Both the position numbers and the translations under genes were made by a program. A stretch of DNA of 64,000 bases from a virus: positions 32,001 through 96,000 of the IMG/VR virus record IMGVR_UViG_3300044998_001357. One strand, written 5' to 3'. The first letter of the stretch is position 1, and each line of letters opens with the position of its first letter. Shown here in pieces: positions 1-34,092 of this stretch. The notes below the pieces were generated by a model. It searched no databases and had not been told where the DNA came from. It saw only the letters and a list, made by a program, of their open reading frames with translations.

Positions 1-444
1 GCAATCCGGAGCATCTTTTCCTGGCGTTAAACGCGCAGGATAGCCCGGAGGTGTCCGAAATTGTTGTGCAGCGATGGCTAATGTTTAGCCGATAACCATC
101 CACATGTCGATGCCAGAGAATGTTTGTCTTAAAAAACAACGAGCAGCCGACCTGGATTCCTTGTCGACCAGAAAAAACCCCTCCTGGAAAACTATCCTGG
201 AGGGGTTACGTTCAGTTTGTCCCATAAGGTCAACCTAAGCTCTTTGAGCATTCGGATGGCCTCGTTCCGACGGGCCGGCTCGCAATCCGCTCCGCCACAC
301 TCTTGGCGAATCGCAGGCGTCTTGCGAGGCACGATACCACGGTAAGGACCAACACAATTGCAACTGCCCACAAAACCAATTATCTGCCATGATGAACCCC
401 CTTTCCTGTGACCTGGGACACGGTCTAAAGGAGTATACGTACCT

Positions 445-823
445 TCAGATGGGATATTTTCGTTTCGCGGTTTTTCGACCCGGCCTATATCCTTTACCCG
501 GAACGTCCTGCTTTTTCGGTCTTGGTGGCGTGTGATAGTGGTCTTTTTGAATGGCCTGATTAGCCCTTTCCCAAGGCCTCGGGCGGTGGGTTGGCAGGGA
601 TAAGACAATCGCAGCCGTTGCCGATGAGGTCTGCTCGTCCCGCCTCGATGAGAGCCCGTCGCACCTCGAAATAGTTCTCGGGCTTGAAAAACTGAAGCAT
701 CGCCCGCTGCATCTTGCGGTCTTTAAGTTGTTTGGCCACATAGACTTCCGCGCCGGTGAAGGAGGCCCGGTTTGTATAGTAAAGTGTCGTAGCGATGTCG
801 AACGGGTAGACACTTTGCTGTTC
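445..823 (-). pseudogene. ygiQ: 3' fragment of a YgiQ/UPF0313 radical SAM gene (DUF3362-like C-terminus), no 5' part, frameshifted tail
   Basis: Minus frame 823..560 (absent from the ORF track) reads YPFDIATTLYYTNRASFTGAEVYVAKQLKDRKMQRAMLQFFKPENYFEVRRALIEAGRADLIGNGCDCLIPANPPPEAL. The tail ERANQAIQKDHYH...GYRPGRKTAKR continues in another frame to 445. Recognised from memory as a YgiQ C-terminus. Confidence 0.8.
777..820. other. Candidate attachment site (attP-like) for the adjacent serine recombinase
   Basis: Perfect inverted repeat AAAGTGTC (781-788)/GACACTTT (809-816), extendable to 12 bp with 2 mismatches and centred on TC 798-799. It lies where ygiQ similarity ends, about 40 bp before the recombinase start. 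Confidence 0.6.
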
Positions 824-856
824 TCATGGTACGTTCTCCTTTCAGGAGGATTTGCC

Positions 857-2443
857 GTGCGTGCCTACAGCTATATCCGGTTCTCGAACCTCAAACAACA
901 ACGAGGCGAATCGTTTCGCCGACAGTCGGAATTCGCAGCCAACATCTGCCGCGAAAATGGCTGGCAGCTGGACGACACCCTCACACTCCACGACCTGGGT
1001 GTGTCGGCCTTCCGTGGGAAGAACGCCAAGGTTGGTGCCCTGGCAGAGTTCCTCGATGCGGTCCGCAGCGAGCGCGTGCCGGCCGGGTCCGTGCTCATTA
1101 TCGAGAGCATCGACCGGTTAAGCCGGAACAAGGTGGGCGAGGCCCTCCAACTGTTCATCTCCATCCTCAATAGCGGCGTTTCCATCCTGACCCTCGAACC
1201 AAGGCGGCACTACACCTCGAACTCCATCAATGAAATCGCATCCCTGCTTGAGCCGATTATCTATATGAGTCGAGCCCACGAGGAGTCGGCCACCAAGTCC
1301 TACCGGCTGAAGGACGCCTGGGCCAAAAAGAAACAGCGTGCCGCCTCTGCCCGAACTCCCATCAGTCGAAATTGCCCTCGTTGGCTGGAACTCACCGAGA
1401 ACGGCTACGTCATTATCCCCGAACGGGCAGCCACGGTGGTCAAGATTTTCGAACTATGCCGGGATGGGTTAGGTATTCAGCGAATCCGAAACTACCTGAT
1501 TGCAAACCAGGAAGTTCACAAGCCATTTGGGGACTCGGGCAAGTGGCGAAGTAGTTACGTTGAAACCATCCTGAAAAGCCGTGCGGTCTTTGGGGAATAT
1601 CAGCCTGGTGCGCGCGACGAACAGAATCAAAAAAAGACCTGCGGTTCACCCATTGAGAACTACTTCCCGGTGGTGGTGTCCCAGGAACTTTTCTTTGCCG
1701 CCCAGTCAGCCATGCAATCCCGCTACCGTTCAGCAGGAAGGCCCGGAATGCGGGAAGCCAACCTCTTTACCGGGATTGTCTGGTGCGCCCGAACCAAGAC
1801 CAGGATGTCGGTCATCTCTTTTCGGTCCTATCGCTACCTGACCTCCGGAGCGGTTGCCCAGGGCAAGGTGCGTCGGGGTAACCCCTACAGCTTCCCCTAT
1901 AAAGAGTTTGAGCAAGCGATGCTACAAACGCTCTCGGAACTCCCCGTCGACGACACCCAGGAGGACGAACTGTCTCAGCAAGTGCAGTCCATCCAGGGAA
2001 GAATTGAAGTTATCGATAAACGTATCGAGGAGGCGGAGAAACGGGTGGTCGACCCAACCGAGGAACAGCCAGGGGTTTACATTAATATCATCAAAGCACT
2101 TAACATAAGCAAGTTAGACATGGTGCGTCAGCTAGAAGAAGTAAAGGGGAAGCAAGGATTGAAGCAATCTAATAGCTTTGATTCTCTTTTACATAAGCTT
2201 GAGAGTCTGCCGCTTGATGAGCTCGAGCCGGCTCGGCAAAAGTTGAAAAGCAGGATTCGAAGCATCGTAGATGCCATCTGGGTCCATATTTCAATAATCA
2301 ATAACAAAACACGAGTTGCGCAAGCTCAGGTTTTTCTCAAAAACGGTAAAAGGAAGCATATTCTTTTTTACAGTCATCCCGGCAAGGGACGCCTTCCCAC
2401 GCCCATCGAGGACTTCTCTCAGGCCGATTTGCGGGAGATGTAG
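857..2443 (+). CDS. Large serine recombinase (integrase)
   Basis: GTG after AGGAGGA. Resolvase motifs AYSYIRFS (catalytic Ser), D.GVSAFRG and ESIDRLSR, then a recombinase domain (ENYFPVVV), a degenerate Zn ribbon (LFTGIVWC) and a coiled coil. Confidence 0.93.
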   Translation: MRAYSYIRFSNLKQQRGESFRRQSEFAANICRENGWQLDDTLTLHDLGVSAFRGKNAKVGALAEFLDAVRSERVPAGSVLIIESIDRLSRNKVGEALQLFISILNSGVSILTLEPRRHYTSNSINEIASLLEPIIYMSRAHEESATKSYRLKDAWAKKKQRAASARTPISRNCPRWLELTENGYVIIPERAATVVKIFELCRDGLGIQRIRNYLIANQEVHKPFGDSGKWRSSYVETILKSRAVFGEYQPGARDEQNQKKTCGSPIENYFPVVVSQELFFAAQSAMQSRYRSAGRPGMREANLFTGIVWCARTKTRMSVISFRSYRYLTSGAVAQGKVRRGNPYSFPYKEFEQAMLQTLSELPVDDTQEDELSQQVQSIQGRIEVIDKRIEEAEKRVVDPTEEQPGVYINIIKALNISKLDMVRQLEEVKGKQGLKQSNSFDSLLHKLESLPLDELEPARQKLKSRIRSIVDAIWVHISIINNKTRVAQAQVFLKNGKRKHILFYSHPGKGRLPTPIEDFSQADLREM

Positions 2444-2637
2444 GCAACAGAAGAATTGCGTCCGCTCACCGTGAAGGCTCGCAGGGCCTCGCGCTCGCAT
2501 CGCTCGTAGGCATCTCCCTGCCCCGGGAGATGACCGCGAAACTGAAGGGCCTCGGTCCAGGAGTTGACCCACTTCTCCCCATCCCAAGACTCGCCATCTT
2601 TGTTCACAACCACAAAGCAATCACCCATCGCTAACAC
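2419..2637 (-). CDS. Small hypothetical protein
   Basis: 72-aa ORF with protein-like composition, convergent with the integrase; GAGGTG near its start. Confidence 0.4.
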   Translation of the reverse strand: MLAMGDCFVVVNKDGESWDGEKWVNSWTEALQFRGHLPGQGDAYERCEREALRAFTVSGRNSSVAYISRKSA

Positions 2638-2724
2638 CTCAATAGGATGGCACCTAGCTTAATCGCCAGTAGGGTGTAGTCAATTGGTTGAGGCGTGCTA
2701 TGATTTGTCAAAAGGGGTGACGAA

Positions 2725-3186
2725 ATGGATGCCGTTCTGGTTCGATATATCGACTTTGCTGACCTGGCGGATATCGTTCGGTGCGAAAGAGCCCGGGGGA
2801 TTAAGTGCTGGGACAAGGAAAGTTTAAAGACGCTTATTAACAAACCCAGGGTGCGTGGCCTTGTGGCCGAGACCATCCTGGACAATAATGCGATTTGGGT
2901 CTGTGGCGCAATGATTTTCGCCGTTGAGTCCGATGGCTACGAAATCCTGTTGCTGTCGCACCATCCCGAAGCACCCGAAGAAACCAAAATTGCCCTCCTG
3001 CGAAAACTCTATACCCGGTCGGAAATGAATGATAAGAAGAATTTAAGGGTCACTATCCTCGACGGGGATTATTCCACGGTCCGTTTTTTCCAGGACCAGG
3101 GATGGGAAGTAAAACTCAGGCCCAATCCCGTCAGCACAGATATATGGGTGGGTACTTTTAAGCAAAAAGCATTCTTGGCCTATTGA
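2725..3186 (+). CDS. RimI-like GNAT-fold protein (degenerate)
   Basis: VRYIDFADLADIVRCE..W...GLVAE..GAMIF...VRFFQDQGW follows the RimI pattern; the acetyl-CoA motif RxxGxG is absent. Confidence 0.55.
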   Translation: MDAVLVRYIDFADLADIVRCERARGIKCWDKESLKTLINKPRVRGLVAETILDNNAIWVCGAMIFAVESDGYEILLLSHHPEAPEETKIALLRKLYTRSEMNDKKNLRVTILDGDYSTVRFFQDQGWEVKLRPNPVSTDIWVGTFKQKAFLAY

Positions 3187-3258
3187 TTAAGTGATTTTTC
3201 TGGATATCATTGTAGGTCGCCCAAAAGGCGACCTTTGGCTATTTACTCAGGTGGGAAA

Positions 3259-4140
3259 ATGTTTAATGCCTTGCTGCCGTACTATGGCTGTAAACGACAG
3301 TCCGCTCTCCGAATCGGGGCCTTTTTGGGAAAACACACCGCCTACTGGGATGTTTTCTGTGCTTCCTGCTCGGTACTCTTTGCCAAGGAGCCCTCGCGCA
3401 TTGAAGTGGTGAACGACCTTCATGGAGGTGTCGTCAACCTTGCGCGTGTGGTGGCAAACGACAACCTGGCACCGCTTCTGTTTGACAAGCTGTCCCGAAC
3501 CGCCTTTTGTGAACCGCTGTACCATGAGATGCGCTCCAGGCTCGAGGAAGGTATCTCAGACCCCCTAGAATGGGCGTATAGCTATCTGGTGGTCTCCTGG
3601 CAGGGGCAAAATGGATTCACCGGCACCCAGAAGGAAAACAGGACCAGTTTTTGCAAACGGTTTGGGACCGGTGGTGGCGACCCGGCGACCCGGTTCCGAA
3701 ATATGGTCGCCCATCTACCAAGTTGGTGGGAACGGCTACGAGGAGTTACCATTCTCCAGAGCAACGCCTTTGACCTACTGAAGCGTATCGCCGACGAACC
3801 TGGTACGGTGATTTACTGTGACCCGCCTTACTACGAGAAGACGCTTCAATATCGCCACGATTTCACCAAGGAGGACCACGAAAAACTTGCCAAGGCCCTG
3901 AACCGGTTCCAGAAAGCTCGTGTCGTGGTGAGTTACTACGACCATGAAATTATCGACGAATTTTATGTTGGTGGTGGATTCATGAAATTCGACATTGAAA
4001 CTCGTAAAACCCTATCCCTATCAATGGGTAAGACAGAATCTCGCGCCCCGGAAATCCTATGGGTGAAGAACTATGAAGAAGATAGTGGTGGTGGGACTCC
4101 TGCCCGGGCAGGCAAAAAAAGTAGAAAGTGGGTGTCCTGA
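3259..4140 (+). CDS. dam: DNA adenine methyltransferase (Dam/D12 class)
   Basis: PYYGCK N-terminus, EVVNDL, catalytic YCDPPY, HEKLA, EILW. Confidence 0.9.
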   Translation: MFNALLPYYGCKRQSALRIGAFLGKHTAYWDVFCASCSVLFAKEPSRIEVVNDLHGGVVNLARVVANDNLAPLLFDKLSRTAFCEPLYHEMRSRLEEGISDPLEWAYSYLVVSWQGQNGFTGTQKENRTSFCKRFGTGGGDPATRFRNMVAHLPSWWERLRGVTILQSNAFDLLKRIADEPGTVIYCDPPYYEKTLQYRHDFTKEDHEKLAKALNRFQKARVVVSYYDHEIIDEFYVGGGFMKFDIETRKTLSLSMGKTESRAPEILWVKNYEEDSGGGTPARAGKKSRKWVS

Positions 4141-4375
4141 GGCAAGCCTCACGTTCGTTCAGGCTGACAAGAAAAATCGTTTGCCACCCGGTGAACACGT
4201 CGTATTAGTAACCAAGTTCATCCGCCACGGATGGACCGAATCCGCCTATAAAAAGTTTGACCGAGAAAACATCCATTTTCACGATGGCGGCATTAGTGGC
4301 CTAATTGTCAAAATTAAGGGTATCTGCAAGGAGCAAGGCCGTGGATTTTTTAAATCTGCTGAAAAAAACACTTGA
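4073..4375 (+). CDS. DUF2325-like small alpha/beta protein
   Basis: KIVVVG...VVLVTKFIRH...GGISGL pattern. Confidence 0.5.
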   Translation: MKKIVVVGLLPGQAKKVESGCPEASLTFVQADKKNRLPPGEHVVLVTKFIRHGWTESAYKKFDRENIHFHDGGISGLIVKIKGICKEQGRGFFKSAEKNT

Positions 4376-4676
4376 TGACGTGAAAGAAGCCAATTTTGCC
4401 GAGGCGGGGATAGGTTTCGCCGAACTGGCACGTTTTTGCCGGCGCATCGACAATAGTGGCGTTGCGCCTCCAACCGAGACCGTGTTTTACTGTATCGTTC
4501 ATGGCGCTGTCTGGGAAGTGGACCTGCCAACCATTCAAACTATCCTGAGGCGTATTGCCAAGGGTCGAGGTTTCCAAATGGAAGGAAGGCTTCTCACGCG
4601 AGAAGCATTCTTTCTGGATACGATGACGCAATCAGAGGCACGAGCAGGACTTCTTGACCTACCGGAGGAATCATAA
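4305..4676 (+). CDS. Hypothetical protein
   Basis: 123-aa ORF continuing the operon; start uncertain. Confidence 0.4.
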   Translation: MSKLRVSARSKAVDFLNLLKKTLDDVKEANFAEAGIGFAELARFCRRIDNSGVAPPTETVFYCIVHGAVWEVDLPTIQTILRRIAKGRGFQMEGRLLTREAFFLDTMTQSEARAGLLDLPEES

Positions 4677-4787
4677 ACAGGACGGTCCATCCCGCGTTTT
4701 AGGGTATCTCGATGAACAAGACCGCTCTCCTGACACCAGCATCCAGGATGATAGGTGTGTTGACTACAACATAGCATAAGCAGAAGC

Positions 4788-4827
4788 AAAAAGAGGGTGG
4801 TGGTATAATCCACTACCCTTTTCTTTT
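4788..4827. terminator. Hairpin with TATAAT loop, flanked by A-rich and T-rich tracts (bidirectional terminator and/or extended -10 promoter)
   Basis: AGGGTGGTGG-TATAAT-CCACTACCCT (4794-4819) followed by TTTCTTTT. Confidence 0.55.
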
Positions 4828-4838
4828 GGTATATCACT

Positions 4839-4923
<85 letters not shown>

Positions 4924-5017
4924 TACGCCACCTTAACATCCTCTGCTTAAAAGTACTAAGCTAAGGTGGGGAAGCGACTACCAAAATCCGAACTTTTTTT
5001 TTGAAAGGGGCTTCGCC

Positions 5018-5248
5018 GTGGTGATTGTTGAAGTTCTCGACAACGAGGATAACATCATGGGCTTTTTCGTAACCGAACTCTCCGCACCGGAGTGTCAATC
5101 CAGACCGCTTCTGGAGTTTGAGGGGGTGCCGGGCCAGTGGTGGCCCTCGGGGGGCTTTGAATACCTCCAAACAGAAGGGCCAAACGCCTGGTTCAGACAT
5201 GCGGCAAGACTGGGAGAGGTTCACCTAGCCACTAGAAAATTTTTCTAG
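5018..5248 (+). CDS. Small hypothetical protein
   Basis: GTG after AAGGGG; 76 aa. Confidence 0.45.
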   Translation: MVIVEVLDNEDNIMGFFVTELSAPECQSRPLLEFEGVPGQWWPSGGFEYLQTEGPNAWFRHAARLGEVHLATRKFF

Positions 5249-5566
5249 TTCGAGCTATTGACTATACAGGGCAAGCTCCTAATTATTGAGTCAGAGAAAA
5301 CGCTAGCTTTAGGAGCGATGGATGACGTTGTTCTTGTCGGTAGCTGTTTTTCGTGGTTGCTTGCCAACCACCAGCCCTGTCGCTCAAGACCTCTCTGTGA
5401 CGCTTTGGGTGTTTGCCCAGTCCTCGGTGGTCACTGCTTACGTCAGCGGGCTAGGGTTCGCTGGGGGGAGGGGTACACGGGCCTCGACATCGCCGACATT
5501 ACCCCGGCGCACCGGCAGTACCGTTTTGGCCGAATTGAAGGATTAATTCACATTGTGAACTAGGAG

Positions 5567-6790
5567 ATGAAAATGATTTTGCGAGGAAATTCTGAACTTC
5601 TGGAGAAAGGCTCGTTCGTTCTCCAGCATCAGCCCCTGGCGACCAAGGAAGGTTTCCGGAACGTCGCCAAGAAATGGTACGACAAGACCATCTCCTTTCC
5701 CCAGGCGATGGAGAAACTGGAACAGGACCGCAGCCACACCACCGACCTGAATGCGACTCTGGACGAGATGGTGCCTGCAGTAAACGAAGCGGGTCGTTTT
5801 GTCTTTCGATATCAGGACGGACGTGAGTTTCAGCCCACCCGTTTTGCTTTGACTCAGCTGGCCGGCTGGGCCTCAACCAGCCGCTGGGTACTGGAAAGCC
5901 TCTCCAGCCCACAGCTGGACCGCAGGGGCCGAAAACAGTACGACCGCGACCGCCAGGACGCCGAGACGCTACTGACCATAGTCCAAAATGGTCTCAGGCG
6001 TACCAAACCGGGCAAGCTCTTTCTGTGGCGAATCCGGGACGACAATACGCTCCGGGCGATTCTGTCCGACCGCTACGCCGTCGTGGATAATCGCTGGTTG
6101 CTTGAGTCCATGGAGCAACTGATTCCTGGTGGACGGGTAAGCCACTGGCGTGGAAACAGCGATTCGCTATACACAAACATTTTGATTCCTGATAGTATTC
6201 GGGCCGAGAGCGACAGCGACTATGGCGGCATGTTCTTTGTCGGCAACAGCGAGATTGGCGAAAGCCGATTGTCGGTGTATCCCTCTCTTTTCCGTGCGAT
6301 TTGCTGGAATGGCTGCATCTGGGGACAAAAAAAGGGTGAGGCCCTTACTCGGATTCATCGTGGCCGAGTGGACCTGAACGCCCTGCAGGTAGCCATTCGC
6401 GAGAATCTGAACTCGCAGATTCCTCTGCTCAACAACGGCATCAACTCCCTGCTGCAGACCAGGATGCTTCGTTGGGAGAACAGTTCTGCCACACCGCTAC
6501 TGGCGCAGGTGGCCATGGACGCCCGGATGAGCCGCAAGCAGGTTAAAGAGTTTCTAGGGGCCTACGACACAGAAGCCGTGACCACTCCGGAATATCGAAA
6601 CACCCTGTTTGGCATCATCAACGCCATTACCCGAGCAGGACAGAATCTGGAAGACTCGGACTGGGTGAGGTTTGATGAACTGGGCGGACGCATCCTGGCC
6701 GAGGGAGAAATTGGTTGGGAGCGAACGATTAAGCGGGCTATGTCGTTGCGCACAAGCGAGATTGAGTCCGTTTTAGGTATGGCTGGATAA
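5567..6790 (+). CDS. DUF932/DUF945-family phage/plasmid protein
   Basis: LRAILSDRYAVVDN, NSEIG, LFRAICWNG, TLFGIINAITRAGQ; AGGAG RBS. Confidence 0.75.
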   Translation: MKMILRGNSELLEKGSFVLQHQPLATKEGFRNVAKKWYDKTISFPQAMEKLEQDRSHTTDLNATLDEMVPAVNEAGRFVFRYQDGREFQPTRFALTQLAGWASTSRWVLESLSSPQLDRRGRKQYDRDRQDAETLLTIVQNGLRRTKPGKLFLWRIRDDNTLRAILSDRYAVVDNRWLLESMEQLIPGGRVSHWRGNSDSLYTNILIPDSIRAESDSDYGGMFFVGNSEIGESRLSVYPSLFRAICWNGCIWGQKKGEALTRIHRGRVDLNALQVAIRENLNSQIPLLNNGINSLLQTRMLRWENSSATPLLAQVAMDARMSRKQVKEFLGAYDTEAVTTPEYRNTLFGIINAITRAGQNLEDSDWVRFDELGGRILAEGEIGWERTIKRAMSLRTSEIESVLGMAG

Positions 6791-24397: not shown

Positions 24398-25377
24398 GCG
24401 AACTTATCCGCGCTTTTGAAAAAGGGGAACTTTCAGGCTGGTTGGGTGACAAGAACCCCGGACTGATTCGTTCGGAGTTCCGACTTCTGAGTCAGTCGGG
24501 ATATCTCAGTACGTTTGCGATTAGCGGCCGAGAAAAACGCGCCCAGAACGCGGGCCGCAAAACCATGCTGTACCTACTGGCCCGGAAGGTGCTTGGCAAG
24601 GACATTCCGCTTTATCGCCAGGAGATTGGCGACTGCGCGAGCTTTGGCGGAAAAAACGCTATCGAACTGTTGCAGTGCTCCCAGATTGCGGTGCAGAAGC
24701 AAGAAATTCGCTGGCGACCCGTCTTTCCGCCCTACACCTACGGAGCCAGTCGGGTCTACGTCGGTCGTGGTCGATTGCCACGCAAACCAGACGGTTCCTG
24801 GGGCGATGGTTCGACGGGGGCCTGGATTGCCCAGTCGTTTCTTCGCTACGGCTGCCTGTTTGCCGACGAGGCGGGTGTACCGGCCTACAGCGGCCGGGTG
24901 GCGACCGCGTTTGGCGACAGCGACCCCAGAAACGACCTGGATAAATGGCTTCCCACCGCCAAGGCCTACCTGACCGGTGCGGCGGCACTGGTTCGTACCT
25001 GGAAGGAACTGGTCGATGCTATTAGTAATGGCTATCCAGTCTTTTGTGGGTCTATGGTCGGTTTTGAGTGGCAGCCGCGCCGCGATGGGTTTCACTACCG
25101 TGGGGAAAAGTGGGCTCATCTGATGTGCTTTACCGGGGTCTGTGACGACCCCAGTAACCCCTATGCCATCCTGCAAAACAGCTGGGGGGATGTCCACGGC
25201 CGACTCAAAGATTTTGACGACGGACACCTGTTGCCACCAGGCAGTCTACGCATCCGCCGTGCGGATGCCGAGGCGATTCTGGCCGCTCGAGACAGCTATG
25301 CGGTCAGTCAGTTTCGTGGTTTTCCAGACCAGTCTCAAGAAATTCAGCGTCATATGTTTGACTTGATTGGGAAATAA
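24394..25377 (+). CDS. Papain-like (C1-type) cysteine peptidase
   Basis: QEIGDCASFG (Gln, Cys), AHLMCFTG (His), QNSWG (Asn). Confidence 0.8.
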   Translation: MSELIRAFEKGELSGWLGDKNPGLIRSEFRLLSQSGYLSTFAISGREKRAQNAGRKTMLYLLARKVLGKDIPLYRQEIGDCASFGGKNAIELLQCSQIAVQKQEIRWRPVFPPYTYGASRVYVGRGRLPRKPDGSWGDGSTGAWIAQSFLRYGCLFADEAGVPAYSGRVATAFGDSDPRNDLDKWLPTAKAYLTGAAALVRTWKELVDAISNGYPVFCGSMVGFEWQPRRDGFHYRGEKWAHLMCFTGVCDDPSNPYAILQNSWGDVHGRLKDFDDGHLLPPGSLRIRRADAEAILAARDSYAVSQFRGFPDQSQEIQRHMFDLIGK

Positions 25378-25392
25378 CTTTAAGGATTTGAC

Positions 25393-27021
25393 ATGTATCG
25401 ACTCATTTTAGTCTATCTGGTGTTGGCCTTTAGCTTCCCCTTGTTCGCCGCTCGTTCGGATGATGAGGAGTTGTCTGGAGATGTGCCGCCCAGTGCGGAG
25501 ACCGAACTGTACGCCGCACTGCGACACAAATACTCCGGGCGATTTGAGGCAGAAGACCTTAACCATATCTATTACTTTACGACCTATGCCATTCCAGAGA
25601 AGTGGAATCTCAATGGCGAAGAGGTCCAACTACGTCAACAGGCAGATTACGCTCTGTCGTTTGTGTTGAATAGCTGTGCCTCTCATAAGTCTGAGGGGCA
25701 TATTGAGAAGCCACGACGCGTCAATGGAAGCAAAACACTCTGGTGGGTTGATATCCGGGATTATGGCTGGTCTACGGAGGACATGAATACCATCTTCCGG
25801 ATTCAACCTTACTTTTTAGCTCCGCTGGTTACCTCGAAAGAAAACGCGATTATCTTTCGAGCGGACTGGTTTATCGTTAATGCGATGGATAGCACCAAGC
25901 AGGAAGACCGGGGCATCAAGGATATCGCATATTTTATCTTGCTCTACGGCAAGGGGAATGAGCCCAAGAACGCCGAAGAGTTTCGCAAACGCTGGAATGT
26001 GGACCTGAGGACGATTCGGGCACAGAAGCTGGAGACGGGTACGATTGTGGATTCGGGCGAGTCGGGCGTTTCGCAGCACACCCGACAACTGCGGCGAGGT
26101 CGCACGATTACCGGGTACTACTGGGAGACCCGGGACGTAAAATCTCATGACGCCGACCGGGACAAGGTCAAAGCGCGTGATTTCGTCGAGGAGATTTCCG
26201 CTGAACAATTTGATGCAGGTGAGTACATCGTCAGTCACAAAAACGGGCTGCAGGTCTATCTGCTCAGTGCCGGTGTTAACGAAGATTTCAAGGTTGTGAA
26301 TTTTGCCGACCCCACGCTGGTGGTCGACCGCCAGGACCGCCACGACCCCCGCGTGCGAACAGCTAAGGGGTGCATCATTTGCCACTCCATGGGAATTATC
26401 CCCTACACCAACACGGTACGCGACCTGTTTCGTTCCGGGATTGACCTCAAGGTCAAGAACAAAGACCTTGCTCGTGCTCTCAAGGCGTTTTACCTGAAGC
26501 ATGACGGCAGCGAGGTCGAGGACGATAACCGGATTTACGAGCGTGCCGTCAAGCAGGTCAACGGCCTGGACCCCCAGAGCAACGCCAAGGCCTACCAGCT
26601 GGTCTACGACTGGTACTGGAACAATAAGGTCACCCTTGAGCAGGCGGCACGAGAATGGGGTATGGAAACCGAGATGTTCCGCCAACAAATCAAAGGTACA
26701 ACCGGTGGTCGATTAAGCTTGCTATACAAGAACAAACCCATGCCTCGCGAAATTTGGGATGCTGTTCAGACGGGCGGATATATCCAGTCCGGCCTATTGA
26801 TTCGGCGTATCGCATCACCTTTCTCGGTTCCGACTGTTTCGGTTCCGCTTGCGGAAGTCGTCACAAAGACCAATTTGATTGATGGAAAAAAGGTACTGGC
26901 CGAACTAGACCCTGGGGCGAAGGTAGAAATTCTAAAAACATATGACGATGAATGGTTTTATGCCCGTTCTGGTTCTGTCGAAGGGTATATTCTTCGCGCA
27001 AATGTGAAGGAGCTAAAGTGA
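25393..27021 (+). CDS. Exported protein with CxxCH heme-c motif and C-terminal SH3b-like domain
   Basis: Sec signal; GCIICHSMG; C-terminal GAKVEILKTYDDEWFYARSGSVEGYI. Confidence 0.7.
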   Translation: MYRLILVYLVLAFSFPLFAARSDDEELSGDVPPSAETELYAALRHKYSGRFEAEDLNHIYYFTTYAIPEKWNLNGEEVQLRQQADYALSFVLNSCASHKSEGHIEKPRRVNGSKTLWWVDIRDYGWSTEDMNTIFRIQPYFLAPLVTSKENAIIFRADWFIVNAMDSTKQEDRGIKDIAYFILLYGKGNEPKNAEEFRKRWNVDLRTIRAQKLETGTIVDSGESGVSQHTRQLRRGRTITGYYWETRDVKSHDADRDKVKARDFVEEISAEQFDAGEYIVSHKNGLQVYLLSAGVNEDFKVVNFADPTLVVDRQDRHDPRVRTAKGCIICHSMGIIPYTNTVRDLFRSGIDLKVKNKDLARALKAFYLKHDGSEVEDDNRIYERAVKQVNGLDPQSNAKAYQLVYDWYWNNKVTLEQAAREWGMETEMFRQQIKGTTGGRLSLLYKNKPMPREIWDAVQTGGYIQSGLLIRRIASPFSVPTVSVPLAEVVTKTNLIDGKKVLAELDPGAKVEILKTYDDEWFYARSGSVEGYILRANVKELK

Positions 27022-29587: not shown

Positions 29588-31501
29588 ATGAGTATTTTTG
29601 AGAAACGTACGGCTTTCAAGCCGTTCGAATACCCAGATATTGTCAAATTCAAGGAGGCTATTAACCATAGCTATTGGTTGGTGAGCGAGTGGACGTTCTT
29701 GTCCGATTTGGATGATTTTCATACCCGGCTCACCCCGGTCGAGCGTTCCGCCGTCAAGAACGCCCTGCTGGCCATTTCGCAGGTGGAAGTGGCCGTCAAG
29801 AAGTTCTGGGGGCGTCTGGGAGACCGAATCCCCAAGCCCGAGTTCGAGCAGGTAGGGGCGACGTTCGCGGAATGTTTTGCCGATGGTACGGAGGTGCTTA
29901 CCCCGACCGGATGGGTAGACCTGGCCGAGGTCGTGGTGGGAGACGAGGTTCTTCAGTTTAACCAGGACGGCTCTTTCTCTTTTGCTCGGGTGACTCATAA
30001 GGTAGACCGCGAGTACACCGGTCCGATACATCGTTTCCACAATAGAAACACAGAAATACTTGTTACTCCTAATCATAGAATGGTTTGCTTTAATAAAGCC
30101 GGCGAGTACATTGTGACCACTGCCGAAAACCTCTCTGTGCGAAACACCAATCTGTTTCTTCCCGAGGCGGGTCGGCTGGTCGGCGATGGCGCTACCGAAC
30201 TGTCGTTCGAAGAACGGTTGCGTGTGGCCATCCAGGCCGATGGTAATCGCCCAACGACGGGCCGGCGACCGCGATTGGGAGATGGGTCCGGGGTTGAATA
30301 CGAAATCCGTATTAGCGAGCCACGCAAGGTCGAGCGACTAGACTGGATTCTTTCCAATCTTCCTGCGATTGGGTCGTCCAAACGACCCATTCCTTCGCAT
30401 CCAGGCATGTTTTGTTACACGATTGGGATTGATGCAGAATACAACTACAAAGAATTTGACTGGGTTACTCTTGTCGGGAAAACAGCAGAGTGGTGCGAGG
30501 ATTTTATTCAAGAACTCGCGGAGTGGGATGGAACACGACCGGCTGGTAAGAAGGTGAAGTATTCCACTACCAATCGGGCAGCCGCCGACGTGGCTCAGAT
30601 GGTTGGGGTCGGAGCGGGTTACCGAGTTCACCTTGGAACCTACACGGATAAGCGCAAGGATGTGTATATCGTCTCTTTCACTTGCAATAGAGAGCGGGTT
30701 AACTTGCCGTCGCTTAAGAGGGAGGTGGTGGACTACTCGGGGTGGGTGCGATGTGTGACGGTTCCTTCAGGTGCCATCATTACCCGGTATAATGACCAGA
30801 CTTTTATTGCCGGCAACTGTGAGGTGCGCCATGCGGATGCTTATTCTCATCTCCTGGAAATTCTGGGCCTGAATACTGACTTTGAGTTATTACTCAAAAT
30901 TCCAGAGATGCAGGGACGGGTGGAATATCTAGGTGAGTCTGTTCGGAGTGGACCCACCAATTCTGATTTCGCTTCTACATTGTCACTCTTCTCTCTTTTT
31001 GTAGAGAATGTGTCGTTATTTGGACAGTTTCTTGTGGTGAAAAGTATCAACAAGCATCGAAACTTGTTGAAAGATATTGACAATGTCATTCAGGCCACTC
31101 AACAGGAAGAGACTATTCACGCTCGGTTTGGGGCGTTTTTGGTCAATCTTATCAAGGCTGAGCACCCCGAGTGGTTTAACGATGATTTTGTCGTCCGTGT
31201 GCGTGAGGCGTGTCTGCGTGCGTATAAGTATGAGCATGCAATCATAAATTGGATTTATTCCGGCGGTGACCTTCCCTACCTTCCTCGCGAGGACATTTTT
31301 ACGTTCCTGCAGCACCGCTTCAACACCAGCCTGGCGATGATTGGTATCGAACCTCTCTTCGAGGTGGACCAGGCCCGGCTCGATAAAACCTTCTGGTTTG
31401 ATGAGGAAGTCCTGACCGAAACCCGAACCGACTTCTTCCACAAACGACCTGTCTCCTATTCCAAGCACAATAAGCCCGTGAATGCGGAGGATTTGTTCTA
31501 A
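29588..31501 (+). CDS. nrdB: Ribonucleotide reductase class I beta subunit with intein
   Basis: FKPFEYP, W..SEW, SQVE, E|CEVRHADAY, VENVSLF, EETIH, DFFHKRPVSY. Confidence 0.93.
   Translation: MSIFEKRTAFKPFEYPDIVKFKEAINHSYWLVSEWTFLSDLDDFHTRLTPVERSAVKNALLAISQVEVAVKKFWGRLGDRIPKPEFEQVGATFAECFADGTEVLTPTGWVDLAEVVVGDEVLQFNQDGSFSFARVTHKVDREYTGPIHRFHNRNTEILVTPNHRMVCFNKAGEYIVTTAENLSVRNTNLFLPEAGRLVGDGATELSFEERLRVAIQADGNRPTTGRRPRLGDGSGVEYEIRISEPRKVERLDWILSNLPAIGSSKRPIPSHPGMFCYTIGIDAEYNYKEFDWVTLVGKTAEWCEDFIQELAEWDGTRPAGKKVKYSTTNRAAADVAQMVGVGAGYRVHLGTYTDKRKDVYIVSFTCNRERVNLPSLKREVVDYSGWVRCVTVPSGAIITRYNDQTFIAGNCEVRHADAYSHLLEILGLNTDFELLLKIPEMQGRVEYLGESVRSGPTNSDFASTLSLFSLFVENVSLFGQFLVVKSINKHRNLLKDIDNVIQATQQEETIHARFGAFLVNLIKAEHPEWFNDDFVVRVREACLRAYKYEHAIINWIYSGGDLPYLPREDIFTFLQHRFNTSLAMIGIEPLFEVDQARLDKTFWFDEEVLTETRTDFFHKRPVSYSKHNKPVNAEDLF
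29873..30817 (+). mobile_element. Intein (315 aa) with LAGLIDADG-type endonuclease in nrdB
   Basis: Starts CFADGTEVLT, block B VTPNH, QADG/EWDG blocks, ends FIAGN|C. Confidence 0.92.
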
Positions 31502-34092
31502 TGAGCGCAGAGTATATCTGGTACACTGAATATACGCATAAGTTCATGAATGCGGGGAGTGGCTACCTTCTGTCCGGTGAGAACGTGGATGAACGCGTTT
31601 GGGAAATCTGTAACACCGCCGAGAAGCGTCTGAAGAAACCGGGCTTCGCCAAGAAGTTCCGTTCATACTTCCAGAGGGGTTGGTACTCGTTTTCAACCCC
31701 CATCTGGGCCAACTTTGGCACCGACCGGGGTTTGCCAATCAGTTGTTATAATTCGCATATCTCGGATTCAATTGATTCGATTCTGGGACATGCGCACGCC
31801 GAAATTGCCATGATGACCAAGTTGGGTGGCGGCACTTCGGCTTACTACGGTGAGGTGCGTGGTCGTGGTGAACCCATTCAGGGAGGCAAAAACGGCCAGT
31901 CTTTTGGCTCGGTCCATTTCGCCAAACATCACGAGTCGCTGATTCAGACCTGCTCGCAGGGCAGTTGCTACGCCGAGGGAACGGAAGTTCTGACCGACCG
32001 GGGATATGTCGATTTTCGCTATGTGAGGCCGACCGACAAATTGGCTCAACTTGACGACCGGAACCGCGTCTCGTTCACGAGCGACTACGAGTTGGTCCGA
32101 AACCCGTTTCGCGGGAACCTGAAAGTTCTGCGACTGAAGAAGCAGGGTGATGTGGTTTGCCGGGTAACGCCGAATCACCGAATGGTGGTGACTCGGCTAA
32201 AGATGGAAGCGCAGCAGCGGTACTGGCCCAACAACACCGAAATCGTCGCAGCTGCTGACCTTAAAGTCCATAGAGGTAATCGCATCCCAGCCGCCGGACA
32301 TCTTGCACAAGGCTCTCGACCTTTCACCTTTGCCGACCGCTTCCGGGTTGCGTTCCAGGCTAATGGGAAAAACGACAGCAACACCATCCGCTTCCGGCTT
32401 AAGAAGACCGGCAAGGTCAAGCGACTATTGTGGATTGCGTCTGGTCTTGGGGTCGAGTGCCGCATGACCAAAACCAACAGCATCACAGACCTGGTTTTCG
32501 ACCACTCGCCCGACCTAAAGGTCGCCAAGTTCTCGGATTGGGTGTCGCTAGCCGACATCGACAAGCAGTGGGCAGTCGACTTCCTGGATGAGCTAGGGCG
32601 ATGGGGTACTCAGACGGGCGAACGGGTCAATTACTATAGCACCGACCGAGAGAATGTCGATTTCGTCCAGGCGGTAGCCTCTATTTGTGGTCGCAAGACC
32701 CGACTGTCCGTTCGTCCGGCTAACGGCGCTCGTCGTCCGCTCTATAAGCTGACCATCGTCGAACAGGACTACCGCTCGGGCGAATCGCTTACGATTGAAG
32801 ATGAGCTGTACGACGGAACCGTCTACTGCGCGGTTGTTCCGCATGGGCGGCTACTAGTGAGGACCAACGGCCAGGTTACGGTCTGCGGCAACACGCGACG
32901 AGGGAACTTCGCGGGCTACTGGCCCATCGACCACCCGGATATTATGGAGGTCTTGCGTATCAAGACCGATGGTTTCCCCATTCAGCACATCTTTTCCGGA
33001 GTGTGTGTGGGCGACCAGTGGCTGACCGATATGGTCAACGGCGACAGGGTCAAACGGGAAGTCTGGGCAGAGGTGATTCGGGCTCGCCAGAACACCGGCA
33101 TTCCCTACATCCTGTTTATTGATACGGTTAATCGCGCCCGGCCGCAGTGGTACAAGGACCAGAACCTGGTGGTCAAATCCAGTAATCTTTGTGTTGAGAC
33201 GACCCCCACCTCCAACGAGGAGGAGTCCTTTGTTTGTGACCTCTCCAGTATGAATGTTCGGTACTTCCTAGAGTGGAAAGATACCGACGCCCCTTATCTC
33301 ATGACCTACTTCCTGGATGCGGTCATGAGCGAGTTCATCGAGAAGGCGTCGAGCATTCCCTATATGGAACGCGCGGTGCGTTACGCCGCGAGACATCGTT
33401 CGCTCGGCGTTGGCTGGTTTGGTTGGCATCACCTGCTCCAAAGTCAGATGATTCCGTTTGAGGGGATGGAGGCCAAGAATCTCAATTCGTTGGTGGCACG
33501 AACCATCCAGCGGGGCTGTATCCAGGCCAGCGAGGATATGGCTCGCGAGTATGGCGAACCCGAGGTGACCAAGGGTTACGGTCGACGACATGCGCTGCTC
33601 CAGGCGATTGCTCCCACCACCTCCTCGGCGTTTATTATCAATCAAACGTCGGAGAGTATCGAGCCGTTGGTGAGCAACTATGAGGTCAAAGACCTTGCCA
33701 AGGGAAAGTTCACGGTTCGCAATCCCTATCTGACAGAGGTTCTCAAAGCCTACGGCAAGGACGACCGTGGAACCTGGCAGTCGATTCTGGAGCGCGGTGG
33801 TAGTGTGCAACACCTTTCTTTCCTGACCCAGCGGGAGCGAGAGGTGTTTAAGACATTCCCGGAAATCTCCCAGCTGGAAATCGTTCAGCAGGCAGCCCAG
33901 CGTCAGCAGTACATCGACCAGGGTCAGTCGCTCAATCTGTTCTTGACCCCCAATGTCCCCACCAAGGAGGTGAACCAACTGCTCCTGGAAGGCTGGCGCA
34001 GTGGGGTGAAGAGCTTCTACTACAACAAGGGCCTCAATGCCGCACAACAACTCACAAGAAGCGTTCTTTCCTGTACTTCCTGTGAGGCTTGA
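31501..34092 (+). CDS. nrdA: Ribonucleotide reductase class I alpha subunit (no ATP cone) with intein
   Basis: STPIWAN, LPISC, GGGT, QGS|TRRG, SNLCVE, IAPTTSS, QQYIDQGQSLN, C-terminal CTSCEA. Confidence 0.95.
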   Translation: MSAEYIWYTEYTHKFMNAGSGYLLSGENVDERVWEICNTAEKRLKKPGFAKKFRSYFQRGWYSFSTPIWANFGTDRGLPISCYNSHISDSIDSILGHAHAEIAMMTKLGGGTSAYYGEVRGRGEPIQGGKNGQSFGSVHFAKHHESLIQTCSQGSCYAEGTEVLTDRGYVDFRYVRPTDKLAQLDDRNRVSFTSDYELVRNPFRGNLKVLRLKKQGDVVCRVTPNHRMVVTRLKMEAQQRYWPNNTEIVAAADLKVHRGNRIPAAGHLAQGSRPFTFADRFRVAFQANGKNDSNTIRFRLKKTGKVKRLLWIASGLGVECRMTKTNSITDLVFDHSPDLKVAKFSDWVSLADIDKQWAVDFLDELGRWGTQTGERVNYYSTDRENVDFVQAVASICGRKTRLSVRPANGARRPLYKLTIVEQDYRSGESLTIEDELYDGTVYCAVVPHGRLLVRTNGQVTVCGNTRRGNFAGYWPIDHPDIMEVLRIKTDGFPIQHIFSGVCVGDQWLTDMVNGDRVKREVWAEVIRARQNTGIPYILFIDTVNRARPQWYKDQNLVVKSSNLCVETTPTSNEEESFVCDLSSMNVRYFLEWKDTDAPYLMTYFLDAVMSEFIEKASSIPYMERAVRYAARHRSLGVGWFGWHHLLQSQMIPFEGMEAKNLNSLVARTIQRGCIQASEDMAREYGEPEVTKGYGRRHALLQAIAPTTSSAFIINQTSESIEPLVSNYEVKDLAKGKFTVRNPYLTEVLKAYGKDDRGTWQSILERGGSVQHLSFLTQREREVFKTFPEISQLEIVQQAAQRQQYIDQGQSLNLFLTPNVPTKEVNQLLLEGWRSGVKSFYYNKGLNAAQQLTRSVLSCTSCEA
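31966..32892 (+). mobile_element. Intein (309 aa) with degenerate endonuclease in nrdA
   Basis: Starts CYAEGTEVLT, VTPNH, QANG/GRWG, ends TVCGN|T. Confidence 0.92.

What the first reader, a model, noticed from the sequence alone, without database searches (positions are those of the whole stretch)
445..2443. Integration module: serine integrase, symmetric att site and an adjacent ygiQ 3' end
Seen: a minus-strand frame absent from the ORF track (823..560) encodes what I recognise as the C-terminus of a YgiQ radical SAM protein, with no 5' part. Similarity stops at the PFD codons, where an inverted repeat AAAGTGTC-N20-GACACTTT centres on TC 798-799, about 40 bp before the integrase GTG. Known: serine-integrase att sites are roughly 40-50 bp imperfect palindromes around a 2-bp crossover, and integrating elements often carry a replacement 3' end of the target gene. 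Inference: this integrase targets ygiQ at the Asp codon of PFD. The fragment is either a phage-borne replacement or the displaced host remnant; its frameshifted tail fits decay or a deliberately shortened C-terminus. I know of no described ygiQ-targeting integrase.
Basis: partly seen in the sequence, partly recalled or inferred. Interest (0 to 1): 0.8.

Follow-up and report, generated by a model that had tools for sequence, protein, structure and literature searches.

The report
Phage integration module targeting ygiQ
A 149-kb phage of Gemmata-like planctomycetes carries a serine integrase, its attachment site and a spare 3' end of the host gene ygiQ, so that insertion into ygiQ leaves the gene whole; it is a well-supported but ordinary kind of integration module with a target gene I found no paper describing.

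Summary

- **Parts:** window 563-820 (minus strand) is a 3' piece of ygiQ (Pfam DUF3362, E 1e-19) with no 5' part. Window 857-2443 is a large serine integrase.
- **Site:** an imperfect palindrome at 775-822, centred on TC 798-799, sits exactly where similarity to ygiQ stops.
- **State:** the record is a near-complete phage genome with terminase, portal and capsid genes to the left of the module. This is therefore the unintegrated attP state, and the ygiQ piece is the phage's own replacement 3' end, not a displaced host remnant.
- **Relatives:** all 19 close integrase relatives (58-78% identity) with upstream DNA, from Gemmataceae genomes and metagenomes, lie next to a ygiQ 3' fragment. None of 27 paralogs at 28-50% identity does.
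- **Integrated copies:** two genomes show both junctions on one contig, 88.7 and 98.9 kb apart. A whole chimeric ygiQ lies at one end; the integrase and the displaced host 3' end lie at the other.
- **Crossover:** older remnants resemble ygiQ only from the GA of the Asp codon onward, which fits a crossover there.
- **Spread:** about 24 of 81 Gemmataceae genomes carry such remnants.
- **Literature:** I found no paper on ygiQ as an integration target.

Earlier notes from this scan describe ygiQ 3'-end stubs without a recombinase in other, unrelated genomes.

The parts
1..95 (+). 3' end of a gene for a protein with two HNH_3 endonuclease-like repeats (whole gene at record 31370-32095). It lies tail to tail with the ygiQ piece and is a conserved neighbour of the module.
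   Evidence: Pfam HNH_3 E 1.7e-13. PHROG HNH endonuclease families, E 6.5e-41. Apart from the integrase and the ygiQ piece, it is the only W protein with a homolog in the G001 element (54% identity). A homolog also sits next to the element-borne ygiQ end in G002, G003 and G030, but not in L058 or L016.
167..207 (-). Hairpin followed by six U, terminator-like, downstream of the ygiQ piece.
   Evidence: RNA fold gives -24.7 kcal/mol, z -2.8, with a stem CCCCUCCAGGA...UCCAGGAGGGG followed by UUUUUU. The simple terminator scan missed it.
445..571 (-). Out-of-frame remainder of the YgiQ basic tail (ERANQAIQKDHYHT...GYRPGRKTAKRKYPI).
   Evidence: Translation in the second frame aligns with the tails of six element-borne copies that are uninterrupted.
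560..820 (-). Phage-borne replacement 3' part of ygiQ (DUF3362 region). It has 86 codons and ends at TAA 562-560. There is no start codon at its 5' end, so it is readable only after fusion to a host ygiQ 5' part.
   Evidence: Pfam PF11842 E 1.2e-19 and TIGR03904 positions 521-558. TGA at 823-821 lies directly upstream. GC3 is 0.65, phage-like.
775..822 (.). attP, an imperfect palindrome. Each arm carries AAAGTG 13-18 nt from the centre. The predicted crossover dinucleotide is TC 798-799, which is the GA of the Asp codon on the ygiQ strand.
   Evidence: Inverted repeat 778-788 / 809-819. The same motif sits in the same register in 19 distinct P arms and 10 of 13 P' arms of relatives.
792..805 (.). 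Block identical in attP and host attB: GCGATGTCGAACGG, the reverse complement of CCGTTCGACATCGC.
   Evidence: Comparison of attP, attL, attR and unoccupied attB sequences.
844..850 (+). Ribosome-binding site AGGAGGA of the integrase gene.
   Evidence: Read from the sequence, 6 nt before GTG 857.
857..2443 (+). Large serine integrase, 528 aa.
   Evidence: Pfam Resolvase E 3.7e-14 and Recombinase E 5.1e-13, with a weak Zn_ribbon_recom match at E 0.023. PHROG 95 integrase E 1.7e-56. Ser10 in YIRFS is invariant. Foldseek's best matches are full-length serine integrase-att complexes, E 6e-8, on a low-confidence model.

Best explanation
Window 445-2443, together with the gene end at 1-95, is the integration module of a temperate 149-kb phage, caught in its unintegrated (attP) form.

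Proposed mechanism:
1. The large serine integrase (857-2443) binds the roughly 48-bp palindromic attP (775-822). It also binds an attB inside the host gene ygiQ, at the conserved codons Pro-Phe-Asp-Ile-Ala that open the DUF3362 region.
2. It exchanges strands at the central GA of the Asp codon (TC 798-799 on the plus strand).
3. After integration the host's ygiQ 5' part (about 580 codons) is joined in frame to the phage-borne 3' part (820-560) and its terminator-like hairpin, so ygiQ stays whole.
4. The host's own last roughly 140 codons are pushed to the other end of the prophage and come to lie next to the integrase gene.

The hosts are Gemmataceae-like Planctomycetota. The same integrase, attP and ygiQ' module, often with a double-HNH gene, also serves elements that are not phages.

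Shown by sequence comparison: the parts, the attP state, both junction types in bacterial genomes, the chimeric make-up of occupied ygiQ genes, and the limits of the exchange region.

Inferred from what is known of large serine integrases: the 2-bp staggered cut at GA, subunit rotation, and the need for a separate directionality factor for excision.
For: 1. Parts: DUF3362 and YgiQ match of the fragment. Integrase domains. Palindrome.

2. attP state: the record is a phage genome that CheckV rates 99% complete. TerL, portal and capsid genes lie at 83-6332, and an HNH gene lies directly left of the fragment. The record holds no other ygiQ piece.

3. Linkage: 9 of 9 genome contigs and 10 of 10 metagenome contigs that have a 58-78% identical integrase and upstream DNA show a ygiQ 3' fragment on the opposite strand, about 100 bp upstream. 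In a sample of 81 Gemmataceae genomes, the 3 close homologs all have the fragment, and 27 paralogs at 28-50% identity have none.

4. Both junctions on one contig:
   - G001: remnant plus integrase at 1,378,613 and whole ygiQ at 1,467,301, same strand, 88.7 kb apart.
   - G002: the same arrangement, 98.9 kb apart.

5. Junction anatomy:
   - The integrase-side junction is a P arm (ATGCAAAGTG...CCG), then TTCGACATCGC, then host TGCATGT.
   - Occupied whole genes are a host arm, then TTCGACATCGC, then a P' arm (CACGGCACTTT).
   - Unoccupied genes read PAPFDIATCM[YW]Y; occupied ones read ATAL, ATTL or ATCL.

6. Composition: in occupied genes GC3 drops from 0.96-0.99 before the site to 0.72-0.86 after it. 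The displaced remnants keep 0.94-1.0.

7. Crossover: in at least 10 independent old remnants, similarity to ygiQ begins exactly at GAC and the preceding codon is not TTC. The palindrome centre is the same GA.
Against: - No recombination has been observed, and the exact crossover is inferred.
- No integrated copy of this particular phage and no host genome for it was found. Its closest integrase relatives are only 58-78% identical.
- The phage-borne ygiQ tail is frameshifted. A fused YgiQ would therefore lack about 40-50 basic C-terminal residues, unless the shift is an assembly error.
- The zinc-ribbon match is below Pfam's cut-off, and no Cys quartet is conserved.
- The structural model is poor, with mean pLDDT 57.
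- Most relatives come from metagenome-assembled genomes.
Confidence: 0.9

Rival explanations
1. The ygiQ piece is the displaced host remnant. On this reading the record is an integrated prophage with host DNA to the left of window 820.
For: In bacterial genomes the integrase gene also lies next to a ygiQ 3' fragment. The first 25 kb of the record are richer in G+C than the rest.
Against: - The G+C-rich left part encodes terminase, portal and capsid proteins.
- The fragment begins with the P' half of the palindrome (GACACTTT). Host remnants carry TGCATGT there instead.
- No ygiQ 5' part exists anywhere in the record.
- The fragment's GC3 (0.65) is phage-like.
Confidence: 0.03
2. The module is a decaying relic. 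The frameshifted ygiQ tail would mean that this phage no longer restores ygiQ, or no longer integrates.
For: The frameshift after Leu 574-572 is absent from six relatives. No integrated copy of this phage was found.
Against: - The integrase frame is intact with its catalytic Ser.
- The attP arms are the best-matched pair of all seven attP sequences examined, 16 of 30.
- The shifted tail frame is still open and conserved over 41 codons, which points to a very recent change or a sequencing error in the run GGGAAAGGG.
Confidence: 0.05
3. The serine recombinase is an invertase or resolvase that acts on the local inverted repeat, and the ygiQ piece is an unrelated captured pseudogene.
For: PHROG 125 (DNA invertase) gives a weak second match, E 1e-8.
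Against: - The protein has 528 aa with a Recombinase domain and a long C-terminal region, as in integrases.
- There is only one site in the record.
- Relatives show attL and attR junctions 89-99 kb apart.
Confidence: 0.02

Closest known systems
Streptomyces phage phiJoe integrase and the SCO2603-type elements (Fogg et al. 2017, PMC5311408)
   Same: - It is a large serine integrase whose attB lies near the 3' end of a radical SAM gene.
- The locus is occupied in many genomes by elements with very different cargo.
- The integrase gene and a second conserved gene end up at attL and attR, and flank attP after excision.
   Different: - The paper calls the phiJoe target a B12-binding-domain radical SAM gene (SCO2606-like). 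I could not check whether it is related to YgiQ.
- The phiJoe site is 74 bp from the gene's end and no replacement end is described. Here about 140 codons are replaced.
- The host phylum is different.
- No Streptomyces phage appeared among the 58 phage records that match this integrase.
YbcK-type (lambdoid E. coli phages), Bcep22/JC1 and Xanthomonas phage Rb1 serine recombinases
   Same: They are the closest sequence relatives among deposited phage genomes, at 29-39% identity over 53-78% of the protein.
   Different: The identity is low. I know of no att sites or targets defined for them, from my own knowledge, which I did not check. They are not linked to ygiQ.
Serine-integrase prophages and elements inside genes: A118 in comK, SPbeta in spsM, skin in sigK (own knowledge)
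   Same: A large serine recombinase with an attB inside a protein-coding gene.
   Different: Those elements split the gene, and it is restored only by excision. Here the element brings a replacement 3' end, so the gene stays whole while occupied.
Tyrosine-integrase islands and phages at tRNA or tmRNA 3' ends, and 3'-end replacing prophages in general (own knowledge)
   Same: The element carries a copy of the target's 3' end. Repeated use of the site leaves arrays of displaced 3' stubs, as seen here in G082, G040 and G002.
   Different: The recombinase family and chemistry differ. The target here is a protein-coding gene, and the attP half-site has to double as coding sequence.

Membership tests
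Large serine recombinase (phage serine integrase) | N-terminal resolvase-type catalytic domain with the nucleophilic serine | tested here: met
   PF00239 scores 53.5 bits against a cut-off of 23.3, E 3.7e-14, over residues 3-161. Ser10 in YIRFS, Arg8 (7 of 8 sequences) and other positions are invariant among 8 sequences.
Large serine recombinase (phage serine integrase) | Recombinase domain (PF07508) after the long E-helix | tested here: met
   PF07508 scores 49.6 bits against a cut-off of 21.1, over residues 188-289.
Large serine recombinase (phage serine integrase) | Zinc-ribbon domain with four Cys ligands | tested here: inconclusive
   PF13408 scores 15.5 bits, below the cut-off of 25.3. 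No four conserved Cys are present in residues 300-360 of the alignment. The model is unreliable there, with pLDDT below 50.
Large serine recombinase (phage serine integrase) | Coiled-coil motif inserted in the C-terminal domain | tested here: inconclusive
   AlphaFold2 predicts two long helices, 367-398 and 405-437, at pLDDT 73-86. Foldseek's top hits are full-length integrase-att complexes at E 6e-8 but with TM about 0.2. A PDB sequence search found nothing.
Large serine recombinase (phage serine integrase) | attP of about 50 bp that is an imperfect palindrome, a distinct and shorter attB, and identity limited to a short core around a non-palindromic central dinucleotide | tested here: met
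   The attP arms carry AAAGTG at -18..-13 on both sides in 7 of 7 attP sequences. attB is weakly symmetric about the same centre. The shared block is 14-18 bp and the centre is GA.
Large serine recombinase (phage serine integrase) | Catalyses attP x attB recombination with a 2-bp staggered cut | not testable with these tools
   Only natural recombination products were examined.
YgiQ / UPF0313 radical SAM protein (for the fragment) | C-terminal DUF3362 region | tested here: met
   PF11842 scores 71.4 bits against a cut-off of 27.6. The fragment is 56-70% identical to Gemmataceae YgiQ C-termini.
YgiQ / UPF0313 radical SAM protein (for the fragment) | Full-length protein with the N-terminal domain and radical SAM core (TIGR03904 cut-off 462 bits) | tested here: not met
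   Only model positions 521-558 match, at 22.9 bits. It is a fragment by design, not a whole gene.
Integrative element that replaces the 3' end of its target gene | In occupied genomes the target's 5' part continues in frame into an element-borne 3' part, and the original 3' part lies at the other end of the element | tested here: met
   G001 and G002 show both junctions on one contig. The chimeric genes are open over 695-721 codons. GC3 switches at the site.

The most novel reading that the evidence does not exclude
The double-HNH_3 protein, whose gene ends at window 95, may be the recombination directionality factor of this integrase clade. It sits across attP from the integrase gene and travels with the module between a phage and non-phage elements. 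If so, it would be a new type of directionality factor, and the module would be a portable cassette exchanged between phages and conjugative or mobilisable islands.

A second open point concerns displaced remnants that themselves carry a P'-type arm (G082, G040). They suggest serial integration into already chimeric ygiQ genes, meaning these integrases would accept a hybrid site as a target.
Probability: 0.15. Interest if true: 0.6.

Novelty: new member of a known kind. Interest (0 to 1): 0.38.

Why it matters
- It gives a sequence-defined attP/attB pair, with natural attL and attR products, for a serine integrase clade from Planctomycetota. Genetic tools are scarce for this phylum, and the target site is conserved across Gemmataceae.
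- It points to ygiQ as a recurrent insertion point in that family. About 24 of 81 sampled genomes carry displaced 3' stubs, and the DNA between stub and gene holds diverse cargo. This offers an explanation for ygiQ-end scars that have no recombinase next to them.
- It shows one integration cassette shared by a 149-kb phage and an 89-kb island that carries a relaxase-helicase and metal-efflux genes.
- It assigns the phage to a host group.

Tried and rejected
- **Viral contigs:** searches of IMG/VR with the integrase and with an 8-sequence alignment found no relatives.
- **Solved structures:** a PDB sequence search with the alignment profile found nothing.
- **Structure model:** the AlphaFold2 model from the shallow alignment is poor (pLDDT 57). 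I use the Foldseek result only as weak support.
- **Terminator:** the consensus terminator scan did not list the hairpin at 167-207; folding shows it.
- **Relatives as prophages:** I first took the integrated relatives for prophages. The G001 element shares only three genes with this phage. Its large genes are a TrwC/TraI-like relaxase-helicase, an SNF2-like protein, P-type ATPases, RND pumps and a CusB-like protein. It looks like an integrative island, so I write 'elements'.
- **Integrases at old remnants:** I looked for integrases next to the old ygiQ remnants that lie 1-6 kb from ygiQ. There were no W-type integrase hits. The neighbouring frames are ordinary, diverse genes or have no Pfam match.
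- **HNH gene:** it is not universal to the module. It is absent left of the fragment in L058 and right of ygiQ in L016.
- **Inverted repeat:** on its own it is not statistically strong.
- **Literature:** searches for ygiQ with integrase or prophage gave nothing relevant.
Full report
**What is in the sequence**

The minus-strand frame 820..563 is open, with TGA at 823-821 just upstream and TAA at 562-560 at its end. It reads QQSVYPFDIATTLYY...CLIPANPPPEALGKG.
- It matches Pfam DUF3362 (71.4 bits, E 1.2e-19, profile positions 10-88) and the last 38 positions of the YgiQ equivalog model TIGR03904.
- Nothing else in the 148,783-bp record matches YgiQ.
- Similarity starts at the codons CCG TTC GAC.
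- The rest of the YgiQ tail (DHYHT...GYRPGRKTAKRK) is present but in another frame, down to 445. Six related element-borne copies have an uninterrupted tail, so this phage has a frameshift just after Leu 574-572, within the run GGGAAAGGG.
- An inverted repeat, AGTAAAGTGTC (778-788) and GACACTTTGCT (809-819), has 20 nt between its arms and centres on TC 798-799, which is the GA of the Asp codon on the ygiQ strand.
- The integrase gene starts at GTG 857, behind AGGAGGA at 844-850, and ends at 2443.
- The integrase has Resolvase and Recombinase domains, a weak zinc-ribbon match and a strong PHROG integrase match. Ser10 is invariant among relatives.

**Which state is this?**

The window is bases 32001-96000 of an IMG/VR virus record that CheckV rates 99% complete.
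- Record positions 83-6332 encode a gpA-type large terminase, a lambda-type portal and a capsid protein.
- An HNH endonuclease-like gene ends at window 95.
- The ygiQ piece therefore lies inside phage DNA, with attP intact.
- The higher G+C of the first 25 kb belongs to the structural module, not to a host flank.
- A hairpin followed by six U lies at window 207-167 on the minus strand, downstream of the ygiQ piece, and looks like its terminator.

**Relatives**

Nine contigs of Gemmataceae and other Planctomycetota genomes encode integrases 59-71% identical. All nine have a ygiQ 3' fragment on the opposite strand about 100 bp upstream. One of the nine is labelled Alcaligenaceae, probably a binning error.

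Eleven metagenome contigs encode relatives 58-78% identical. All ten with upstream DNA show the same fragment.

In a sample of 81 Gemmataceae genomes, three have a close homolog and each has the fragment. Twenty-seven paralogs at 28-50% identity have none within the fetched flanks. The link is therefore specific to this clade.

**Both junctions**

- In G001 (LR594585.1) the remnant and integrase lie at about 1,378,613. A whole 720-codon ygiQ has its Pro-Phe-Asp site at about 1,467,301 on the same strand, 88.7 kb away.
- In G002 the same arrangement spans 98.9 kb.

Read in the ygiQ direction, the sites are:

| Site | Sequence |
|---|---|
| Integrase-side junction | ...ATGCAAAGTGCCAAGCCG TTCGACATCGC GACG TGCATGT... 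|
| Occupied whole gene | ...GACTTCATCCCGGCCCCG TTCGACATCGC CACG GCACTTT... |
| This phage | ...CAGCAAAGTGTCTACCCG TTCGACATCGC TACG ACACTTT... |
| Unoccupied genes in 20 or more genomes | ...CCCGCCCCG TTCGACATCGC SACS TGCATGT... |

The unoccupied genes encode PAPFDIATCM[YW]Y. This is the pattern expected for attL, attR, attP and attB.

The AAAGTG motif lies 13-18 nt from the centre on both arms of all seven observed or rebuilt attP sites. Among distinct arms it is present in 19 of 19 P arms (allowing one variant base) and in 10 of 13 P' arms. The bases next to the motif differ between lineages and partly match between the two arms of one site.

The P' arm must also encode YgiQ residues. This explains why occupied genes read ATAL, ATTL or ATCL instead of ATCM.

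GC3 gives an independent check. Occupied genes fall from 0.96-0.99 before the site to 0.72-0.86 after it, and the displaced remnants keep 0.94-1.0.

**Where the exchange happens**

Within one genome, attL and attR share CCGTTCGACATCGC, so the exchange lies inside that block.

About 24 of the 81 Gemmataceae genomes carry extra ygiQ 3' fragments that start at residues 560-607 of the 720-residue protein (this is my count from that table). In at least ten of these older remnants, similarity to ygiQ begins exactly at GAC, and the codon before it is not TTC: it is ACT, GAT, AGT, CCC, GCC, GAC, CCT, CAT, CCA or CTG. Their former partners had a different P arm, so the left limit of host-derived DNA is the G of GA. 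That is also the centre of the palindrome.

I therefore take GA (TC 798-799) as the crossover dinucleotide with about 75% confidence. The right limit is not resolved, because coding constraint keeps CATCGC the same in both partners.

**What the relatives are**

The G001 element is not a relative of this phage. Only the integrase, the ygiQ piece and the double-HNH protein have homologs there. Its large genes are a TrwC/TraI-like relaxase-helicase, an SNF2-like protein, two P-type ATPases, two RND pumps and a CusB-like protein. The module is thus shared by a phage and an island that looks mobilisable or conjugative.

The HNH gene lies tail to tail with the element-borne ygiQ end in G001, G002, G003 and G030, but not in L058 or L016. 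In phiJoe, the integrase gene and the directionality-factor gene flank attP in the same way (PMC5311408). This makes the HNH protein a weak candidate for that role.

**Spread**

The old remnants have no integrase of this type beside them. The DNA between them and ygiQ holds varied genes:
- a photoproduct-lyase-like radical SAM protein
- a HEAT-repeat protein
- an esterase
- a deaminase
- a histidine kinase
- a TPR protein
- polysaccharide lyase and glycosidase genes
- a protein kinase
- a sulfatase

.

G082 has at least five stubs spread over 100 kb downstream of ygiQ. In a phylum-wide sample, 74 other genomes have one ygiQ 3' region each and none has two. Among the genomes sampled, the hot spot therefore appears confined to Gemmataceae.

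**Comparison with what is known**

The protein is a large serine recombinase by its first two domains. The zinc ribbon is doubtful and no Cys quartet is conserved. The structural model is poor, but its best matches are full-length serine integrase-att complexes.

The closest deposited phage proteins are YbcK-type, Bcep22/JC1 and Xanthomonas Rb1 recombinases, at 29-39% identity.

The nearest published parallel is phiJoe and the SCO2603 elements, which sit near the end of another radical SAM gene. Samy targets yet another one.

I found no paper that names ygiQ as an integration target. Earlier notes of this scan describe ygiQ 3'-end stubs without a recombinase in unrelated genomes. I did not test whether those have the same cause.

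**Verdict**

The fragment is the phage's replacement 3' end. This is a new member of a known kind, of moderate interest: mainly as a defined att pair and possible genetic tool for Planctomycetota, and as an explanation for the stub arrays.

Noticed in passing
window 1-95 (gene at record 31370-32095, L004:13370-14092): A protein with two HNH_3 repeats travels with the integrase and the ygiQ piece. It is 54% identical in the otherwise unrelated G001 element, and it always lies tail to tail with the element-borne ygiQ end in G001, G002, G003 and G030. It is a possible excision factor or homing nuclease.
   Followed up: partly
L067-L071 (G001:C2:1376001-1471000): The 88.7-kb element inserted in ygiQ of this Gemmataceae genome carries a TrwC/TraI-like relaxase-helicase, an SNF2-like 1870-aa protein, two P-type ATPases, two RND pumps and a CusB-like protein. 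It looks like a metal-efflux island rather than a prophage.
   Followed up: partly
L072-L074 (G082:C1:7583001-7688000); also L079 (G040) and L024 (G002:C5:288898-289029): These loci hold arrays of several displaced ygiQ 3' stubs downstream of one whole ygiQ. Some stubs (L074 at 14031, L079 at 4299) carry a P'-type arm (GCACTTT), which suggests a later element displaced an earlier element's replacement end.
   Followed up: partly
window 857-2443 and alignment A1: This integrase clade has no conserved set of four cysteines where the zinc ribbon is expected. A profile of the clade finds no PDB sequence at E 0.01.
   Followed up: partly
P arms of relatives, e.g. L006, L011, L059: The conserved P-arm motif ATGCAAAGTG supplies an in-frame ATG (MQS..PFDIAT) to the displaced host remnant. 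This phage has CAGCAAAGTG and a TGA just upstream, so it lacks that start.
   Followed up: no
window 4839-4924: A heptanucleotide tandem repeat, TCTTCTG, is present in 12 copies at 98% match.
   Followed up: no
record 24819-25652 (L004:6819-7649), outside the window: An ISL3-family transposase gene lies inside the phage genome, 7 kb left of the integration module.
   Followed up: no
window 3235-4140: A DNA methyltransferase gene (PHROG 56, E 1e-55) lies 0.8 kb right of the integrase.
   Followed up: no
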